Below are positions 1 through 9,012 of a stretch of 64,000 nt of DNA, piece after piece. The translations under genes were made by a program, and so were the position numbers. Numbering within the stretch: the first letter of the stretch is position 1; every line of letters begins with the position of its first letter. The notes beneath the pieces were generated by a model. It worked only from the letters and a program-made list of their open reading frames with translations. It had not been told where the DNA came from and did not search any database. The DNA is from a phage: the sequence record OZ413489.1; one strand, written 5' to 3'.

Positions 1-1
1 A

Positions 2-400
2 ATGATTTCAGGTTTAACATGGCTGAGTAGGTATAGAGGGATCATAAAAGGTTTAGTTTTTGCAGCGGCTATAGGTACAGCTTATCTTGGGGCCGTGTAT
101 TGGTTTAACTCTAAGCTTAATGAAGCCTACCAAGAAGGTGTGTTAGCAACAGAGTTGAAGTGGGAACGGATCCTTGATCAGCAACAAAAGCAGGCCGACA
201 AAATTAAAATGGGCCACGCAGAGGAGGTTAAAAACCTTGAAAAATCCCTTTCTGATCTACAGGATAAATTAAATATAGCTGAGAGGGCAGGTAGAGAAAA
301 GCAGATTATCTACCTCCAATCGCCTGAAGGTAAGAAGTCAACACTTCCTGATCAGCTTATAGATATTTATAATGAGAGTATCAATCAGGAGGATCGATGA
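2..400 (+). CDS. i-spanin (Rz-like inner-membrane spanin)
   Basis: 132-aa ORF; N-terminal TM segment GIIKGLVFAAAIGTAYLGAVYWF then charged coiled-coil-like region; stop overlaps next start (ATGA). ATG at 2 may be the true start but upstream is outside the window. Confidence 0.45.
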   Translation: MISGLTWLSRYRGIIKGLVFAAAIGTAYLGAVYWFNSKLNEAYQEGVLATELKWERILDQQQKQADKIKMGHAEEVKNLEKSLSDLQDKLNIAERAGREKQIIYLQSPEGKKSTLPDQLIDIYNESINQEDR

Positions 401-684
401 GAGTTGCCACACTGTTTATTGCGTGCTTGTTATTATGTGGGTGTGCAACCAGCGTTGAGAGAGAATACAAGATTGACCCTCCGGATGTAGGAAGGTTGAT
501 TGTTAAACCCCCAGAAGGTGCCATGAAACCACCTGCTAAAGCTATGCCTTTGAAGAAAGGTGCGCCAGATGCAGTGAATTCTGGCATTATGAGGGATAAT
601 AATCTGTCTTGTAGCAATGATAGAGCTAAATTGATCATTTTGCAAGACTATATTAGAACACTTTTTCCAAAGGAGAGAGGTTAA
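397..684 (+). CDS. o-spanin (Rz1-like outer-membrane lipoprotein)
   Basis: 95 aa; signal peptide with lipobox-like LLLCGC; Pro-rich mature part; AGGAGG 5 nt upstream; stop overlaps terminase start (TAATG). Confidence 0.5.
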   Translation: MRVATLFIACLLLCGCATSVEREYKIDPPDVGRLIVKPPEGAMKPPAKAMPLKKGAPDAVNSGIMRDNNLSCSNDRAKLIILQDYIRTLFPKERG

Positions 685-1109
685 TGTCTAAGATTTACGG
701 ACCGTGTTCTGAAAAGCAGAAGATGATCCTAGAAAACGATGCAGATATTTTGGTAATCGGCGGTGCCGCAGGGTCTGGCAAGTCGTTCCTCTTGCAATTG
801 ATGCCACTTAAAATTATTGATGACCCCCACAGCTCTGTGGTTATGTTCCGAAGAACAACCCCACAGTTGGAAGGTGAGGGTGGATTATGGCCTAAAGCAG
901 TAGCTATTTATAGTGATCTGCCTGAAAACATTAAGCCAAAGTTTAGAGAGAAGGATCATAAGTTCATTTTTCCACGGTTTGATCCGAACACTGGCAAGTG
1001 GGATAGAAGCAAAAAGGGAGCTGTTGTAAAATACTGCCACATGGAGTATGTACAAGATAAGCTTAACCATCAGGGGCTTGAGTACACCATGGTTTGCTTC
1101 GATGAGGGT
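684..1109 (+). CDS. terL: terminase large subunit, exon 1 (ATPase N-terminal part)
   Basis: Walker A GGAAGSGKS and Walker B-like MVCFDE; frame closes with UAA at 1110-1112, which is the first codon of a group I intron. Confidence 0.8.
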
Positions 1110-1428
1110 TAATTTGTAGCTCTCGTAAAACCTCCCTAATTGCGGGGAAATCTTTATTATTGACACCACCAACCTGTCATGGTAACATGACAGAGGCTTC
1201 GAAGAGAGATCGAAGGTATGGTAACAGTGTGTTAATTTAGATAATCCGCAGCGAAGCATCCGAGAGGATGAACGTTCAACGACTAGTCGAAAGACGTAGA
1301 ATCAAGCGATTCGAAACGGGAGGGTAAGCGGTTGTTGTCGCTTATAAGATATAGTCTGGTCTGCATGGAGACATGCAGCTGCCTGAAAATGGCGGGGCAA
1401 GACTAGCGACCTTGCCCGAACATAAACG
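1110..1428 (+). ncRNA. group I intron 1 (ORF-less, self-splicing type)
   Basis: Core elements in order: P AATTGCGGGGAAA 1138-1150, Q AATCCGCAGC 1243-1252, R GTTCAACGACTAGTC 1274-1288, S AAGATATAGTC 1347-1356; GNRA-capped P9 hairpin 1361-1378; 7-bp P1 between exon 1103-1109 (UGAGGGU) and guide GCUCUCG 1119-1125 with U1109/G1119 wobble; 3' end at G1428 chosen by frame and by tail GAACAUAAACG shared with intron 2; alternative 3' sites 1443, 1446, 1449, 1461. Confidence 0.7.
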
Positions 1429-1745
1429 ACACAATTCGAATGGGAGCAGATAGACTATCTGATGTCTCGTCTGCGATCTCAGTCAAAGTATCCATCAAGA
1501 ATGGTTATCAGCTGTAACCCAGATTCAGAACACATGCTTGCCAAACTGGTTAGATGGTGGTTGGACGATGAAGGGTATCCAGATCCGGAGAAATGCGGTA
1601 AGAAAAGATATTTTATCCGACGCGACGGTGAATTTATCTGGGGAGACTCTAAAGAAGAGTTGATAGAGAAATACACCACGGTTAACGGACTGGGTGTGGA
1701 GATCAAGCCAAGACCGTTGTCATTCTCGTTCATAGGCGCAACCAT
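1429..1745 (+). CDS. terL: terminase large subunit, exon 2
   Basis: In frame with exon 1 when joined at 1109/1429; gives ...VCFDEG/TQFEWEQIDYLMSRLRSQSKYPSRMVISCNPD..., with DE-to-P spacing matching T4-type terminases (recollection); ends in a split codon AU at 1745. Confidence 0.6.
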
Positions 1746-2013
1746 TAAATAATAGTGGCTTCGTGCAGAAATGCACGTCGAATAACTTCGTTAATTGCTG
1801 GAAAATCCGATTGCTAAACGGACAATCAGCAGCCAAGCCTGAATATTCAGGAAGGTTCAACGACTATCCCGAGAGGGAGTAGGGCGCAAGCTTATGGCGC
1901 TCGAAAAGCGAAGCACCCTGAAAGGGGTGGTGATATAGTCTACTCTGCATGGTAACATGCAGCAGCACGTAATGGTGCGGAGGGTGGTGTTGCGACCACC
2001 TTTGAATATAAGG
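1746..2013 (+). ncRNA. group I intron 2 (ORF-less, paralogous to intron 1)
   Basis: P AATTGCTGGAAA 1793-1804, Q AATCAGCAGC 1824-1833, R GTTCAACGACTA 1855-1866, S GATATAGTC 1932-1940; GAAA-capped hairpin 1762-1777; P9 hairpin 1945-1962 (GUAA loop); 4-bp P1 exon CCAU 1742-1745 with GUGG 1755-1758; 3' end G2013 after tail GAAUAUAAGG; alternative 3' site G2031. Confidence 0.65.
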
Positions 2014-2818
2014 ATTCGATAATCCTGTCTGTTTGAGAGACAACCCAGAATACCTTGCTTTCCTTGAAGGTCTGCCGGAACTGGAAAAAGCTCAGCTTCT
2101 TCATGGTAACTGGTTTGCAAAGCCTGAGGGTGCAAACTATTTTCAAAGATCTTTCCTTCGTGATGCCGATAGAGTACCCCTTGGATCAGTATCTTGCAGG
2201 GCATGGGATAAGGCAGGAACCGAGAGAACTTCCGGTAATAAATTTCCTGACTTTACCGCCAGTATTAAGGTAAGTAAAGATAGCGACGGCTTTTATTACC
2301 TGTCCGGTGATTATTGTCCTGAGAACGTGGATGACGGGAGGTATTCCACAGGTCTGGAAGGCAAGTTCTGTAAAAAGGCTGGTGAACGAGATGTGATCAT
2401 CAGGAAACAGGCGCAGTTCGATGGTGATGATTGCATAATCGTCTTCTCTGTGGACCCAGGTCAGGCAGGTAAGAGTGAGTTCTTAACCTCATCCAGATCC
2501 TTGCTCGCCGAAGGGTTCAGGGTTGAAGAAGACCCAATGCCTTCCAACAAATCTAAACTGACAAGGTTCTCACCTTTTGCCAATCTTGCACAACAAGGAA
2601 TGGTGAGGATTGTAAAATCCAGTTTCCATCCTGATACTCTGGAAGCATTTCTGACTGAACTTGAAAAATTCAACGGGGAAAGATCAACATTTAACAGAAA
2701 AGACGACTGGGCCGACTGTGTAGCTTCTGCGATTAATTTCCTAGAGAAAGAGGAGGTAGCACTTCCTTGTGTGATTCCATCAATCTCATCACCTTCTATG
2801 TTCAAGCGTTTTATCTAA
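2014..2818 (+). CDS. terL: terminase large subunit, exon 3 (C-terminal nuclease-domain region)
   Basis: Joined 1745/2014 the codon AU+A reads Ile and continues FDNPVCLRDNPEYLAFLEGL...; spliced product about 515 aa; stop 2816-2818. Confidence 0.6.
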
Positions 2819-2821
2819 GTG

Positions 2822-2850
2822 TTGCCAATCTTAATTAGATGTGGTACAAT
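2822..2850 (+). promoter_or_regulatory. sigma70-like promoter, TTGCCA-17-TGgTACAAT
   Basis: -35 2822-2827, 17-nt spacer, TG-extended -10 2845-2850; upstream of portal gene. Confidence 0.45.
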
Positions 2851-2867
2851 AAAGTAATTGGAGATAC

Positions 2868-2896
2868 TAGCCCTCTGACGAGGGCTATTTTGTTAT
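2868..2896 (+). promoter_or_regulatory. 5' leader stem-loop (terminator-like) upstream of portal gene
   Basis: TAGCCCTC-TGAC-GAGGGCTA then TTTTGTTAT, between promoter and GTG start of portal. Confidence 0.35.
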
Positions 2897-2918
2897 ACTG
2901 TTTTGAGGGGTAAAGCTT

Positions 2919-4475
2919 GTGTCCAAAAAGAACCGCAGGAAACACAACGCCACAGCCAAAACTGTGAATAAATCTGGGAACGCAGGCGCACCAACTCATA
3001 ATGTTCGTATGAGTGAGATCGGTTCTGGCGCACTTTCCCAAATTATGGCAGAATCGCAATCTATGATGGTTGAGGAATTGCGTTGGCCTCAGCTGATTGC
3101 CACAGTGGAGACTATGAAATGTGATTCCACAGTTGCTACTGCCTTAGATACAAAATATGTTTTCATCACGAAAGCATTCAATGATTTTAAGATCCTTTAT
3201 AATGTTAAAAGTGAAGACTCTAAGAAAGCTGCCGAGCTTATAGAGTATTCTTTGCGTAATTTGGCAAACCAACAAACTCTTCGAGATATTGCAAGAAGCG
3301 CAGCTACCTTTAACGAGTATGGTTTTTCACTGTTTGAGAAAGTATACCGCAGAGAGAAAGAAGGTAAATATGCCGGGATGCTTCTTATCGATAAAATTGC
3401 ATTCCGACCTCAGGCCAGCCTGTCCAGATCAGAGCCGTTTGTTTTTGATAAGAATAGCAGAACACTGACAGGTATTTATCAGTCACCTAATGCATTTCTA
3501 AACACTCAGAATGCACGCTGGGCTGGACCTCTTGCTGCAATGCCTTCAAAAAGCTTTAATGAGCCTGAAATTTTCATCCCTGCTAAAAAGCTTATGCTCA
3601 TGACCCTGTCAGGAACAGAATCTAACCCTGCAGGTGTGTCACCGATGATAGGTTGCTACAGATCTTTCCGTGAGAAAGTTCTGATTGAAAACCTTGAGGT
3701 TGTTGGCTGTTCCAAAGACCTTGGTGGTGTGCTTGAGCTGAAAATTCCTTCCAATATTTTGAACAAGGCCAGCATTGACCCGAATTCAATGGAAGGGAGA
3801 ATGGTTGCAGATCTTATGCTTGACGCAGCAAACGCCCATAGTGGTGAGCAAAGTTTCTTTATACTTCCGTCTGATAGAGATAAGTCTGGTAAAGAGCTTT
3901 ACTCCATGACCCTGAAGGGGGTTGACGGTATGGGTAAGCAGTATTCCACTAAAGATTTGATTGATGCCCGTAAGAAGGCGATTCTTGACCGTTTCGGTGC
4001 TGGCTTTATTAACCTCGGTAACGATAACGTTGGATCCTTCTCTCTGTCTGAGTCAAAACAGTCTATCCATGGTCATTTTGTTCAGCGTGATATAGATATT
4101 ATCACTGAAGCCTTCAATAAGGATCTTATTCCACAGCTTCTGGCATTGAATGGTATCATCCTTGAAGATGATGATATGCCTAAACTGAAACCTGGTCTGA
4201 TTGAAGAAGTGGATATGGAGAGCTTCTCCAAGTTTGTCCAGAGGATCGGTGCTGTAGGTTACTTGCCAAAAACTCCTGCAGTAATTAATAAGATTCTTGA
4301 AGTAGGCGGGTTTGATGAAAGATTTGACGAGGACATGGATCAGGAAGAGCTGATGAAGCTCTTGGGCCAGGACATCAGTAGAGCTGGTGATGGAATGGCT
4401 GCAGGATCCACTGGCAACGGCACTTCTAAGATATCATCAACCAGAGATAATTCCATATCCAACATGGAAAATTAA
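2919..4475 (+). CDS. portal protein
   Basis: 518 aa, GTG start with GAGGGG RBS; immediately after terminase; size and position typical of portal. Confidence 0.65.
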   Translation: MSKKNRRKHNATAKTVNKSGNAGAPTHNVRMSEIGSGALSQIMAESQSMMVEELRWPQLIATVETMKCDSTVATALDTKYVFITKAFNDFKILYNVKSEDSKKAAELIEYSLRNLANQQTLRDIARSAATFNEYGFSLFEKVYRREKEGKYAGMLLIDKIAFRPQASLSRSEPFVFDKNSRTLTGIYQSPNAFLNTQNARWAGPLAAMPSKSFNEPEIFIPAKKLMLMTLSGTESNPAGVSPMIGCYRSFREKVLIENLEVVGCSKDLGGVLELKIPSNILNKASIDPNSMEGRMVADLMLDAANAHSGEQSFFILPSDRDKSGKELYSMTLKGVDGMGKQYSTKDLIDARKKAILDRFGAGFINLGNDNVGSFSLSESKQSIHGHFVQRDIDIITEAFNKDLIPQLLALNGIILEDDDMPKLKPGLIEEVDMESFSKFVQRIGAVGYLPKTPAVINKILEVGGFDERFDEDMDQEELMKLLGQDISRAGDGMAAGSTGNGTSKISSTRDNSISNMEN

Positions 4476-4542
4476 AAATTATCAACACAGGTGGTTGCAA
4501 AACCTCCTTTGGCGTGATAAAATAATCCACATGGGGAATAAG

Positions 4543-4962
4543 ATGCCACAGGAAGAAATGATTTCCTACGAAATCATCTACGAGCCTGACACTAAAGATG
4601 CTCACGGTGAGTGGATGAGTAAAGACACCATCAAAAAGGCTAAAGATAACTGGGACGCAGCATACGCTGCAGGCCTAGTTTCTGAAAACCTTTTCCACTT
4701 GACCTCTACAGATGCTTTCACTATTGAAAAGACGTGGATTCAAGAAGAGTTTGATGTTGTAGTAATTGGCACTGAGCAGGTCATCAAGGCTGGCTCTTGG
4801 GTTGCTAAAGTTAAATACAATAATCCTGAATTATGGGAAGCTAAGAAGGCTGGCATTGTTGGTGGCCTAAGCATTCAGGCAACAGGTAATGTTGATGAAG
4901 AAACTGGTGAAATTACCAACGTAAACTTCGGGATCAGTGTTGTAGAAGAGGGCAATGAATAA
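4543..4962 (+). CDS. head morphogenesis protein (function unknown)
   Basis: Track ORF 4387-4962 overlaps portal; ATG 4543 with GGGGA RBS chosen as start (139 aa); lies between portal and scaffold. Confidence 0.4.
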   Translation: MPQEEMISYEIIYEPDTKDAHGEWMSKDTIKKAKDNWDAAYAAGLVSENLFHLTSTDAFTIEKTWIQEEFDVVVIGTEQVIKAGSWVAKVKYNNPELWEAKKAGIVGGLSIQATGNVDEETGEITNVNFGISVVEEGNE

Positions 4963-8391: not shown

Positions 8392-9012
8392 ATGGCATGG
8401 TATGAAGATGAAGAGATTATCCAGTCACCGCCTAACCATGATGGTGTAGTCGATACCCCAGAAGAACCACCAAAAGAAGATCCTGTACCTCCGGAACCTG
8501 ATCCAGACCAACCTCTTATTAATATTATGAGGTTGTTGCTTGGCAATGTTGATGAGGAAACCCTCCCTGATGAGGTAATTAAAACATTCCTTGACATGGA
8601 GAAGTTGAAACTAAATTATCCGGCAGATCCTGATAAGCTACCTCTACTTAAGTACAATGTGCTTGTGCAGCTGGTGCGGTGGCTGATGATGCAGGAAGTG
8701 TCCAGCGGTAATGCAAGTATAACTTCCCGTCTGGAAAAAATAGGTGATGAGACCATAGAGATTCGTGGTGGATCTTCCTACGCCCAATGGAAGGATTTCC
8801 TTGATTGGCTGCTGGCACACCCAGACTATGTAGATTCTGAGCTAGATGCTTACAGCAGAATGATTATCATTGGTGGTGTTCGTGTAGACGAAGGAATTCG
8901 GGTTAAATTTAATGAAAACAGCAACGGACCGTTCGATGTCCAGGGGATTACACCTATCAGCGGTCTAAATAACCAACCTCCTCGCCACCCAAGACGCAAA
9001 CGCAGTTTTTAA
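8392..9012 (+). CDS. hypothetical structural protein
   Basis: Track ORF 8335-9012 trimmed to in-frame ATG 8392 (MAWYEDEE...) because the upstream part overlaps the terminator; Pro-rich acidic N-terminus. Confidence 0.4.
   Translation: MAWYEDEEIIQSPPNHDGVVDTPEEPPKEDPVPPEPDPDQPLINIMRLLLGNVDEETLPDEVIKTFLDMEKLKLNYPADPDKLPLLKYNVLVQLVRWLMMQEVSSGNASITSRLEKIGDETIEIRGGSSYAQWKDFLDWLLAHPDYVDSELDAYSRMIIIGGVRVDEGIRVKFNENSNGPFDVQGITPISGLNNQPPRHPRRKRSF

What the first reader, a model, noticed from the sequence alone, without database searches (positions are those of the whole stretch)
2..686. Separate spanin pair abuts terminase with no small terminase gene between
A TM-anchored coiled-coil protein and a lipobox-bearing Pro-rich lipoprotein are encoded as adjacent genes overlapping by 4 nt, not in the embedded Rz/Rz1 arrangement. 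The o-spanin stop overlaps the terminase start, so no TerS gene lies between lysis and packaging genes. TerS must be elsewhere or very divergent.
Basis: partly seen in the sequence, partly recalled or inferred. Interest (0 to 1): 0.4.

Follow-up and report, generated by a model that had tools for sequence, protein, structure and literature searches.

The report
Known rV5 spanins beside split terminase
These are the already-catalogued spanin lysis genes of an rV5-like coliphage, sitting directly in front of its intron-split large terminase gene; the 'missing' small terminase is probably a tiny unrecognised gene about 1.3 kb further upstream, outside the window.

Summary
ORF 2-400 encodes a membrane-anchored helical protein and ORF 397-684 a lipobox lipoprotein. 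They overlap by ATGA, and the second stop overlaps the terminase ATG (TAATG). It is not new. The window is a Vequintavirus about 99% identical to phage RudolfGeigy, where these genes are annotated i-spanin and o-spanin. Kongari et al. 2018 already list the rV5 pair under the 'separated' architecture. The lack of a recognisable TerS in this terminase clade has been noted since 2010.

The new part is a TerS candidate. It is a 112-aa 'hypothetical' gene (rV5 ORF74, phrog_3330) 1330 nt upstream of the i-spanin, outside the window.
- Its divergent homologues sit in the TerS slot, 0-54 nt before TerL, in five loci.
- In other relatives they are separated from TerL only by a spanin pair.
- Its helical core matches a TerS family (hhalign 92.6%, controls ≤0.3%).

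The spanins therefore look like an insertion into an old terS-terL operon. This is inference, with probability about 0.6. The finding as given is ordinary.

The parts
2..400 (+). i-spanin gene (132 aa): N-terminal transmembrane helix, long periplasmic helix, no Cys
   Evidence: ORF. KD peak at residues 14-32. phrog_4297 'Rz-like spanin' at 1.1e-47. AF2 helix 3-105 plus 117-127. Annotated i-spanin in MZ501102 and Rz-like spanin in NC_011041.
397..684 (+). o-spanin gene (95 aa): SPII lipobox LCGC (Cys16), Ala at +2, 11% Pro, one periplasmic Cys (C72). Overlaps the i-spanin by ATGA.
   Evidence: phrog_1267 'Rz-like spanin' at 1.8e-22. 100% identical to the rV5 protein and annotated o-spanin in many records.
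684..1109 (+). TerL exon 1 (Walker A GGAAGSGKS). The start codon shares base 684 with the o-spanin stop.
   Evidence: Uninterrupted CR8 TerL aa 1-129 aligns to 684-1109. Annotated as join of 3 pieces in relatives.
1110..1428 (+). Group I intron 1 (319 nt, no ORF). 5' exon ends in U, intron ends in G.
   Evidence: Rfam RF00028 at 84 bits against a gathering score of 50. Junctions from the CR8 alignment and sequence.
1429..1745 (+). TerL exon 2
   Evidence: CR8 TerL aa 130-227 aligns to 1429-1746. The junction is fixed by the intron-less JohannBauhin allele.
1746..2013 (+). Group I intron 2 (268 nt, no ORF). Absent from phage JohannBauhin.
   Evidence: Rfam RF00028 at 96 bits. megablast gap against L008. 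The spliced codon ATA equals the intron-less allele.
2014..2818 (+). TerL exon 3 (nuclease domain). The spliced product is 515 aa.
   Evidence: CR8 aa 228-490 aligns to 2015-2803. The spliced protein hits Terminase_6N (72 bits, across both junctions) and Terminase_6C.
2868..2887 (+). Intrinsic terminator-like hairpin closing the spanin-TerL unit. A promoter-like site lies at 2822-2850.
   Evidence: A Rho-independent terminator is annotated at the same place in rV5.

Best explanation
The window starts at the i-spanin gene of an rV5-like Vequintavirus. Genes 2-400 and 397-684 are its two-component spanin.

- The first is an inner-membrane-anchored helical protein.
- The second is an outer-membrane lipoprotein.
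- From the lambda and T4 paradigms, the two are inferred to bridge the periplasm and fuse or disrupt the outer membrane as the last step of lysis.

The arrangement is the T4-like 'separated' type, and the genes are unlinked to the holin and endolysin. The pair is packed head-to-tail against the large terminase gene (ATGA and TAATG junctions). No promoter or terminator signal lies between them. The three genes are therefore inferred to be one late, translationally coupled unit that ends at the terminator at 2868-2887. TerL itself needs two group I introns spliced out.

The reason no TerS lies between is inference, with probability about 0.6. I think the ancestral terS-terL pair was pried apart. 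The TerS equivalent would be the 112-aa ORF74/phrog_3330 protein. It has an AT-hook-like RGRP arm, a three-helix core, an acidic linker and a conserved PFTTEI tail. It is encoded 1330 nt upstream of the i-spanin, off the window. The spanin pair, and in Vequintavirinae also tRNA genes and one small ORF, were inserted between it and TerL.
For: Identity:
- The window is 99.1% identical to RudolfGeigy and 98.7% to rV5.

Spanins:
- TM helix, lipobox and Pro content were found.
- PHROG spanin families match at 1e-47 and 2e-22.
- The AF2 model is helical.
- Relatives annotate the genes as spanins.
- They are listed as 'separated' in PMC6139136.
- The endolysin and putative holin lie far away in the relative.

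TerL:
- Rfam detects both introns.
- The exons are colinear with the uninterrupted CR8 TerL.
- The spliced protein hits Terminase_6N and Terminase_6C.
- No promoter or terminator signal lies within 1-2800 apart from chance-level matches.

TerS candidate, homology:
- P0047, the family's remote member, hits phrog_2538 'terminase small subunit' at 5e-9. The hit overlaps the residues that hit phrog_3330 at 1e-7.
- Three core members hit TerS PHROGs weakly, at 2.5e-3 to 7e-3.
- P0047's relative is an annotated TerS that overlaps TerL.
- hhalign of the ORF74 family against that TerS family gives 92.6% (P = 4.5e-7). Reversed and shuffled controls give at most 0.3%.

TerS candidate, synteny:
- The homologue is 0 nt from the TerL start in L014, L018, Aeromonas phage 2L372X and phiA047, and 54 nt in L012.
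- It is separated from TerL only by a spanin-like pair (plus one 53-aa ORF in L011) in L011 and L019/L020.
- It is always co-oriented with TerL.
- It holds the same relative position in CR8 and Hena1.
Against: - No experiment exists for any of these proteins in this phage.
- The spanin model comes from lambda and T4. Here the o-spanin has one periplasmic Cys, not two as in T4.
- The TerS link is weak at the sequence level. ORF74 itself hits only phrog_3330 'unknown function' and no Pfam family.
- The hhalign match covers only 42 columns. It was made against a family picked as the best remote hit of a 1.84-billion-protein search.
- In rV5 a sigma70-type promoter is annotated before ORF74. tRNA genes and a terminator-like hairpin separate it from TerL. 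It is therefore not co-translated with TerL in this lineage.
- A small DNA-binding regulator would also fit an AT-hook plus helices.
Confidence: 0.85

Rival explanations
1. The lineage truly lacks a small terminase. TerL alone, or with host factors, initiates packaging, so nothing is 'missing' next to the spanins. ORF74 would be something else, for example an AT-hook transcription or nucleoid factor.
For: The literature says Felix O1, wV8, phiEa21-4 and rV5 have 'single terminases' and raises an alternative packaging mechanism (PMC3185647; PMC7289586). No TerS is annotated in relatives. ORF74 has no Pfam or annotated PHROG hit of its own.
Against: The ORF74-family gene abuts or nearly abuts the TerL start in five independent loci and is always co-oriented with it. 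Profile links to TerS families exist, with clean controls. From general knowledge, headful or cos packaging in tailed phages with T4-type TerL normally uses a TerS.
Confidence: 0.2
2. TerS exists but is another unrecognised gene elsewhere in the 137-kb genome. Candidates include the 89-aa ORF68 directly upstream of the i-spanin, the wHTH ORF79, the 192-aa ORF77, or a head-module hypothetical.
For: Many small hypothetical genes exist. ORF79 has an HTH_36/wHTH. ORF68 is the immediate upstream neighbour.
Against: None of these gave a convincing TerS-family signal in PHROGs or Pfam. The only TerS-named hit was a P-loop-only match of the polynucleotide kinase to phrog_800 (E = 0.008, no significant stretch). 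ORF79 matches replication-initiator families at 3e-80. ORF68 is absent from the equivalent position in L011, L019, L014 and L018. The window's head-module proteins match connector, protease, chaperone or unknown-function families.
Confidence: 0.12
3. The two ORFs are not functional spanins. They would be, for example, a superinfection-exclusion or other envelope protein pair that merely has a TM helix and a lipobox.
For: There is no functional test in any rV5-like phage. Pfam has no hit. The periplasmic Cys count differs from T4.
Against: All sequence-level spanin criteria are met. The TM-protein then lipoprotein order recurs in CR8, L011 and L019/L020, and the o-spanin C-terminal motif recurs in L011 (NDRAKLIILQDYI / NDRNRLKTLQDYI). 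No other spanin candidate is annotated in the genome.
Confidence: 0.03

Closest known systems
rV5 gp068/gp067 ('rv5' spanin families of Kongari et al. 2018; i-spanin/o-spanin of BASEL Vequintaviruses)
   Same: It is the same genes. The o-spanin is 100% identical to that of rV5. The gene order, the ATGA overlap and the abutment on TerL are the same. It is filed as the 'Separated' architecture.
   Different: Nothing of substance. There are a few substitutions in the i-spanin (80-97% identity to database clusters).
Phage T4 PseT.3/PseT.2 spanins
   Same: Both have the separated architecture and lie away from the holin and endolysin. The i-spanin has no Cys and a two-helix periplasmic domain. The o-spanin is larger than lambda Rz1 (PMC6139136).
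   Different: They are different sequence families, and no cross-hit was seen in PHROGs. The o-spanin here has one periplasmic Cys (C72), whereas T4 has two essential ones. Here the genes overlap by 4 nt and sit in the packaging operon.
Lambda Rz/Rz1
   Same: The inferred job and topology are the same: an inner-membrane type II protein plus an outer-membrane lipoprotein spanning the periplasm.
   Different: Lambda's Rz1 is embedded in Rz in the +1 frame and sits in a holin-endolysin-spanin cassette. Rz carries Cys residues. Neither is the case here.
Canonical terS-terL operon (e.g. Desulfofustis phage LS06-2018-MD01 TerS, phrog_2538)
   Same: The core helices of the ORF74 family align to this TerS family (hhalign 92.6%). 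Homologues of ORF74 occupy the same slot, abutting TerL, in Plateaulakevirus and in metagenomic phages.
   Different: ORF74 is about 110 aa and lacks the N-terminal HTH. It has an RGRP AT-hook-like arm instead. In this lineage it is displaced 2 kb from TerL by tRNA genes, one ORF and the spanins.
Group I introns in phage terminase genes (rV5; Lactobacillus phage LL-H terL)
   Same: TerL is interrupted by self-splicing-type introns. This is described for rV5 in PMC3606486.
   Different: In this window both introns are ORF-less. rV5 carries an HNH endonuclease ORF in that region, and JohannBauhin lacks intron 2.

Membership tests
Two-component spanin (i-spanin + o-spanin) | i-spanin: a single N-terminal transmembrane domain (type II) | tested here: met
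   KD19 = 1.8 at residues 14-32, the only hydrophobic segment.
Two-component spanin (i-spanin + o-spanin) | i-spanin: a largely alpha-helical / coiled-coil periplasmic domain | tested here: met
   AF2 gives helix 3-105 and helix 117-127, with pLDDT about 70 over the long helix. The protein is 28% charged residues. Coiled-coil oligomerisation itself was not tested.
Two-component spanin (i-spanin + o-spanin) | o-spanin: signal peptidase II lipobox with an invariant Cys | tested here: met
   MRVATLFIACLLLCGC matches the PS51257-type pattern, with LCGC and Cys16. No dedicated predictor such as LipoP or SignalP was available.
Two-component spanin (i-spanin + o-spanin) | o-spanin: outer-membrane sorting (no Asp at +2); short, Pro-rich mature domain | tested here: met
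   Ala is at +2. The mature protein is 80 aa with 9 Pro.
Two-component spanin (i-spanin + o-spanin) | At least one periplasmic Cys for a homotypic intermolecular disulfide | tested here: met
   o-spanin has Cys72 and the i-spanin has none. The rule comes from PMC6139136. Disulfide formation was not tested.
Two-component spanin (i-spanin + o-spanin) | Separated architecture: adjacent genes, o-spanin not embedded in the i-spanin | tested here: met
   Only the 4-nt ATGA is shared. rV5 is listed under 'Separated'.
Two-component spanin (i-spanin + o-spanin) | Sequence membership of a recognised spanin family | tested here: met
   phrog_4297 at 1.1e-47 and phrog_1267 at 1.8e-22. No Pfam family matched.
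Two-component spanin (i-spanin + o-spanin) | Function: required for outer-membrane disruption; complements lambda Rz-am Rz1-am | not testable with these tools
   Needs an experiment.
Large terminase, T4-type (Terminase_6) | N-terminal ATPase and C-terminal RNaseH-like nuclease domains above the Pfam thresholds | tested here: met
   The spliced 515-aa product hits Terminase_6N at 72.2 bits (cut-off 22) and Terminase_6C at 27 bits (cut-off 22.6).
Group I intron | Match to the RF00028 covariance model above the gathering score | tested here: met
   96 and 84 bits against a gathering score of 50, with full-length model matches.
Group I intron | 5' exon ends in U, intron ends in G, and excision restores an ORF colinear with intron-less homologues | tested here: met
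   The junctions are GGU|UAA...ACG|ACA and CAU|UAA...AGG|AUU. The exons are colinear with CR8 TerL and with the JohannBauhin allele.
Group I intron | Self-splicing in vitro / in vivo | not testable with these tools
   Needs RT-PCR or an in-vitro splicing assay.
Small terminase (TerS): candidate ORF74/phrog_3330, off-window | Gene immediately upstream of, and co-oriented with, terL | tested here: inconclusive
   This is met in homologues: the gap is 0 nt in L014, L018, 2L372X and phiA047, and 54 nt in L012. It is not met in this lineage, where the gap is 2012 nt and holds tRNAs, ORF68 and the spanins.
Small terminase (TerS): candidate ORF74/phrog_3330, off-window | Sequence or profile similarity to a recognised TerS family | tested here: inconclusive
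   hhalign gives 92.6% over 42 columns, with controls ≤0.3%. Members hit phrog_2538 and phrog_7344 only at 2.5e-3 to 7e-3. ORF74 itself has no TerS hit.
Small terminase (TerS): candidate ORF74/phrog_3330, off-window | N-terminal DNA-binding domain, helical oligomerisation core, C-terminal TerL-binding tail | tested here: inconclusive
   An invariant RGRP basic arm is present where an HTH would be expected (weak AT_hook hits, E about 0.01). There are three helices and a conserved C-terminal PF[TS]T[DE]I after an acidic linker. The functions of these parts are inferred only.
Small terminase (TerS): candidate ORF74/phrog_3330, off-window | Ring oligomer; binds pac/cos DNA; stimulates TerL | not testable with these tools
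   Needs biochemistry or multimer modelling.

The most novel reading that the evidence does not exclude
The 112-aa ORF74/phrog_3330 protein, encoded 1330 nt upstream of the window's i-spanin, is the long-sought small terminase of Vequintavirinae and related myoviruses. It would be a minimal TerS in which an AT-hook-like RGRP arm replaces the usual HTH domain. The spanin pair of this finding would be a secondary insertion into an ancestral terS-terL operon. Plateaulakevirus and several uncultured phages keep terS abutting terL. Other relatives carry only the spanins in between (plus one 53-aa ORF in L011). Vequintavirinae added tRNA genes as well.
Probability: 0.6. Interest if true: 0.5.

Novelty: already known. 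Interest (0 to 1): 0.25.

Why it matters
As given, the finding matters little. The spanin pair, its separated architecture, its position in front of TerL, the TerL introns and the absence of a recognisable TerS are all in GenBank annotations and published papers.

The side result could matter to phage biologists and annotators. 'No small terminase' has been repeated for the Felix O1 / rV5 / V22 terminase clade since 2010. It has been used to suggest an unusual packaging mechanism, and it forces arbitrary genome linearisation.

A concrete, testable TerS candidate has three uses:
- The packaging question becomes directly addressable by knockout, TerL pull-down and pac mapping.
- The annotation of hundreds of therapeutic-candidate coliphage genomes would improve.
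- It would give an example of lysis genes and tRNAs invading a terS-terL operon.

Tried and rejected
- Pfam on both spanins and on ORF68 gave nothing meaningful.
- ORF68 (89 aa), directly upstream of the i-spanin, was rejected as TerS or holin. It matches phrog_8729 of unknown function and shows no TerS signal. It is missing from that position in divergent relatives.
- ORF79 (wHTH) was rejected as TerS. It matches replication-initiator PHROGs at 3e-80.
- ORF77, ORF76, ORF75 and ORF78 gave no informative hits.
- Ten head-module proteins of the window were screened for TerS families. None matched.
- The exhaustive profile search with the ORF74 family found only 22 representatives, so no large annotated family was reached directly.
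- The search for homologous proteins on the i-spanin returned only close (≥80%) relatives. The AF2 alignment was therefore shallow and the model only moderately confident.
- tblastn of P0041 and P0044 found no counterpart in Felix O1-type phages. I cannot extend the TerS candidate to Ounavirinae.
- I did not read the rV5 RefSeq annotation beyond 70.5 kb. The statement that no TerS is annotated rests on the full RudolfGeigy record plus rV5 1-70.5 kb.

Full report
**What the window is.** Megablast of window 1-3000 finds 156 phage records. The best is Escherichia phage RudolfGeigy (MZ501102, Vequintavirus, BASEL collection) at 99.1% identity, with window position 2 equal to record position 1. rV5 itself is at 98.7%. 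The window's left edge therefore coincides with the conventional start of these records. [quoted passage not shown]

**The observation.** ORFs 2-400 (132 aa) and 397-684 (95 aa) exist on the + strand.
- The first has one hydrophobic segment at residues 14-32. It is otherwise highly charged and has no Cys. AlphaFold2 predicts a single long helix 3-105, a linker and a short helix 117-127, at moderate confidence with pLDDT 63.6.
- The second begins MRVATLFIACLLLCGC. This is a lipobox (LCGC, Cys16) with Ala at +2. The mature protein is 80 aa with 9 Pro and one further Cys at 72.
- The junctions are ATGA (397-400) and TAATG (682-686), each preceded by a Shine-Dalgarno sequence.
- PHROG 'Rz-like spanin' families match at 1.1e-47 and 1.8e-22. 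Pfam has nothing.
- In rV5, where the upstream DNA is contiguous, the i-spanin starts at the same ATG. An in-frame stop, a terminator-like hairpin and an RBS precede it. It is therefore not the tail of a larger protein.

**It is already known.** RudolfGeigy annotates these genes as i-spanin, o-spanin and a three-piece terminase large subunit. RefSeq rV5 calls them 'Rz-like spanin' twice. Many other records do likewise, and the o-spanin is 100% identical to that of rV5.

The 2018 spanin census lists an 'rv5' o-spanin family of seven phages and an i-spanin group of three under the Separated architecture. That class holds 118 of 528 two-component systems. T4 PseT.3/PseT.2 is its paradigm, and in T4 too the spanins are unlinked to the holin and endolysin (PMC6139136). 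In RudolfGeigy the endolysin is about 10 kb upstream on the other strand and the putative holin about 50 kb away.

The terminase ORF that starts at 684 stops at 1112. Rfam finds two group I introns, at 84 and 96 bits against a gathering score of 50. The uninterrupted TerL of Cronobacter phage CR8 aligns colinearly to 684-1109, 1429-1746 and 2015-2803. Phage JohannBauhin lacks the second intron.

With the U/G splice rules, the exons are 684-1109, 1429-1745 and 2014-2818. The introns are 1110-1428 (319 nt) and 1746-2013 (268 nt). The spliced 515-aa protein hits Terminase_6N across both junctions, and Terminase_6C. Introns in rV5 terL were published in 2013 (PMC3606486).

No promoter or terminator signal stands out between position 1 and the TerL stop. 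A terminator-like hairpin lies at 2868-2887 (also annotated in rV5).

**Where is TerS?**
- No TerS is annotated among the 231 features of RudolfGeigy.
- None is annotated in rV5 1-70.5 kb.
- None appears among the feature names shown for the 60 relatives listed for the 5 kb upstream. Those name lists are truncated.
- The Felix O1 paper (2010) already groups rV5 with phages that have only a 'single terminase' (PMC3185647).
- A 2020 paper repeats this for the related V22 clade and suggests an alternative packaging mechanism (PMC7289586).
- Ten unannotated proteins of the window's head module show no TerS signal.
- The upstream ORFs 68, 75, 76, 77, 78 and 79 show none either.

**A candidate.** One upstream gene stood out: rV5 ORF74 = bas52_0224. 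It is 112 aa and lies on the same strand as TerL. It ends 1330 nt before the i-spanin start, so it is outside the window. It belongs to phrog_3330 'unknown function'.

Twenty-six homologues show four features:
- an invariant basic arm, RRxGRPLKEESNAIQLEKN;
- a helical middle;
- an acidic linker;
- an invariant C-terminal PF[TS]T[DE]I.

**Homology evidence for the candidate.**
- The most remote relative, P0047 (207 aa), hits phrog_2538 'terminase small subunit' at 5.4e-9. The hit overlaps the residues that hit phrog_3330 at 1.1e-7.
- Three core members hit TerS PHROGs weakly.
- P0047's relative in Desulfofustis phage is an annotated TerS whose stop overlaps the TerL start.
- Profile-profile comparison of the ORF74 family (without P0047) against the P0047 family gives 92.6% probability, P = 4.5e-7, over 42 columns.
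- Reversed and 30 column-shuffled controls give at most 0.3%.

**Synteny evidence for the candidate.** This is the strongest independent evidence.
- In every informative locus the family member is co-oriented upstream of a Terminase_6 TerL.
- The gap is 0 nt in two metagenomic contigs (L014, L018) and in the cultured Aeromonas phages 2L372X and phiA047. It is 54 nt in L012.
- In L011 (plus one 53-aa ORF) and L019/L020, what lies between the gene and TerL is a TM-protein plus lipoprotein pair (lipoboxes VVGC and LSGC). The L011 lipoprotein shares the C-terminal motif of the window's o-spanin.
- In CR8 and Hena1 the gene sits inside the tRNA cluster upstream of the spanins and TerL.

**Interpretation.** Two things are shown: the spanin identity at the sequence level, and the split TerL. 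The rest is inferred.
- The three genes probably form one late, translationally coupled unit.
- An ancestral terS-terL pair was probably split by insertion of the spanin pair, and in Vequintavirinae also by tRNAs and ORF68.
- ORF74 would then be a minimal TerS that uses an AT-hook-like arm instead of an HTH.

I put the TerS assignment at about 0.6. The rivals are no TerS at all (about 0.2) and another unrecognised gene (about 0.12).

**Verdict.** The finding as written is correct but ordinary and already described, so interest is low. The only potentially new element is the TerS candidate. It lies outside the given coordinates and needs experimental confirmation.

Noticed in passing
window 1110-1428 and 1746-2013: Two ORF-less group I introns split the large terminase gene into three exons. 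The first-stage reader treated the terminase as a simple ORF start.
   Followed up: yes
L001:7333-7671 (rV5 ORF74) = L005:35712-36050; 1330 nt upstream of window position 2: A conserved 112-aa 'hypothetical' protein (phrog_3330) has an invariant RGRP basic arm and a PFTTEI tail. Its homologues abut TerL in other phages, and its core matches a TerS family. It is a candidate cryptic small terminase.
   Followed up: yes
L001:10866-11561; L008; L011:4042-6141; L019:5299-7833; L012; L018; L022; L023: TerL of this clade is a hotspot for selfish elements. The region between TerL exons holds an HNH ORF in rV5, and intron 2 is absent in JohannBauhin. TerL is split in Aeromonas and metagenomic relatives. 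The 699-aa and 844-aa TerLs look intein-bearing (GGAAGC|VSAETEY… in L011).
   Followed up: partly
window 2822-2887: A promoter-like site (TTGCCA-17-TACAAT) and a strong terminator-like hairpin lie between TerL and the portal gene. They mark the end of the spanin-TerL unit.
   Followed up: partly
L001:~8950-8995 (just upstream of the i-spanin in rV5; off-window): A terminator-like hairpin (CCCCG…CGGGGTTTTTT) lies immediately before the i-spanin RBS. The spanin-TerL unit may therefore depend on read-through or on an unrecognised late promoter.
   Followed up: no
window 4387-4962: The prohead protease gene is annotated 'DNA methyltransferase' in RefSeq rV5 (gp063). It hits both phrog_1530 'DNA methyltransferase' and phrog_3017 head maturation protease. 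This is probably a propagated misannotation.
   Followed up: partly
records MG0656xx (hits H6, H8, H9 etc.): Eighteen records named 'Campylobacter phage' are 97-98% identical to E. coli rV5-like phages over this region. They are likely mislabelled or contaminant assemblies.
   Followed up: no
L005:37006-37275 (ORF68/bas52_0231, off-window): An 89-aa acidic protein of unknown function (phrog_8729) sits between the tRNA cluster and the i-spanin in Vequintavirus. It is not present at that position in more distant relatives.
   Followed up: partly
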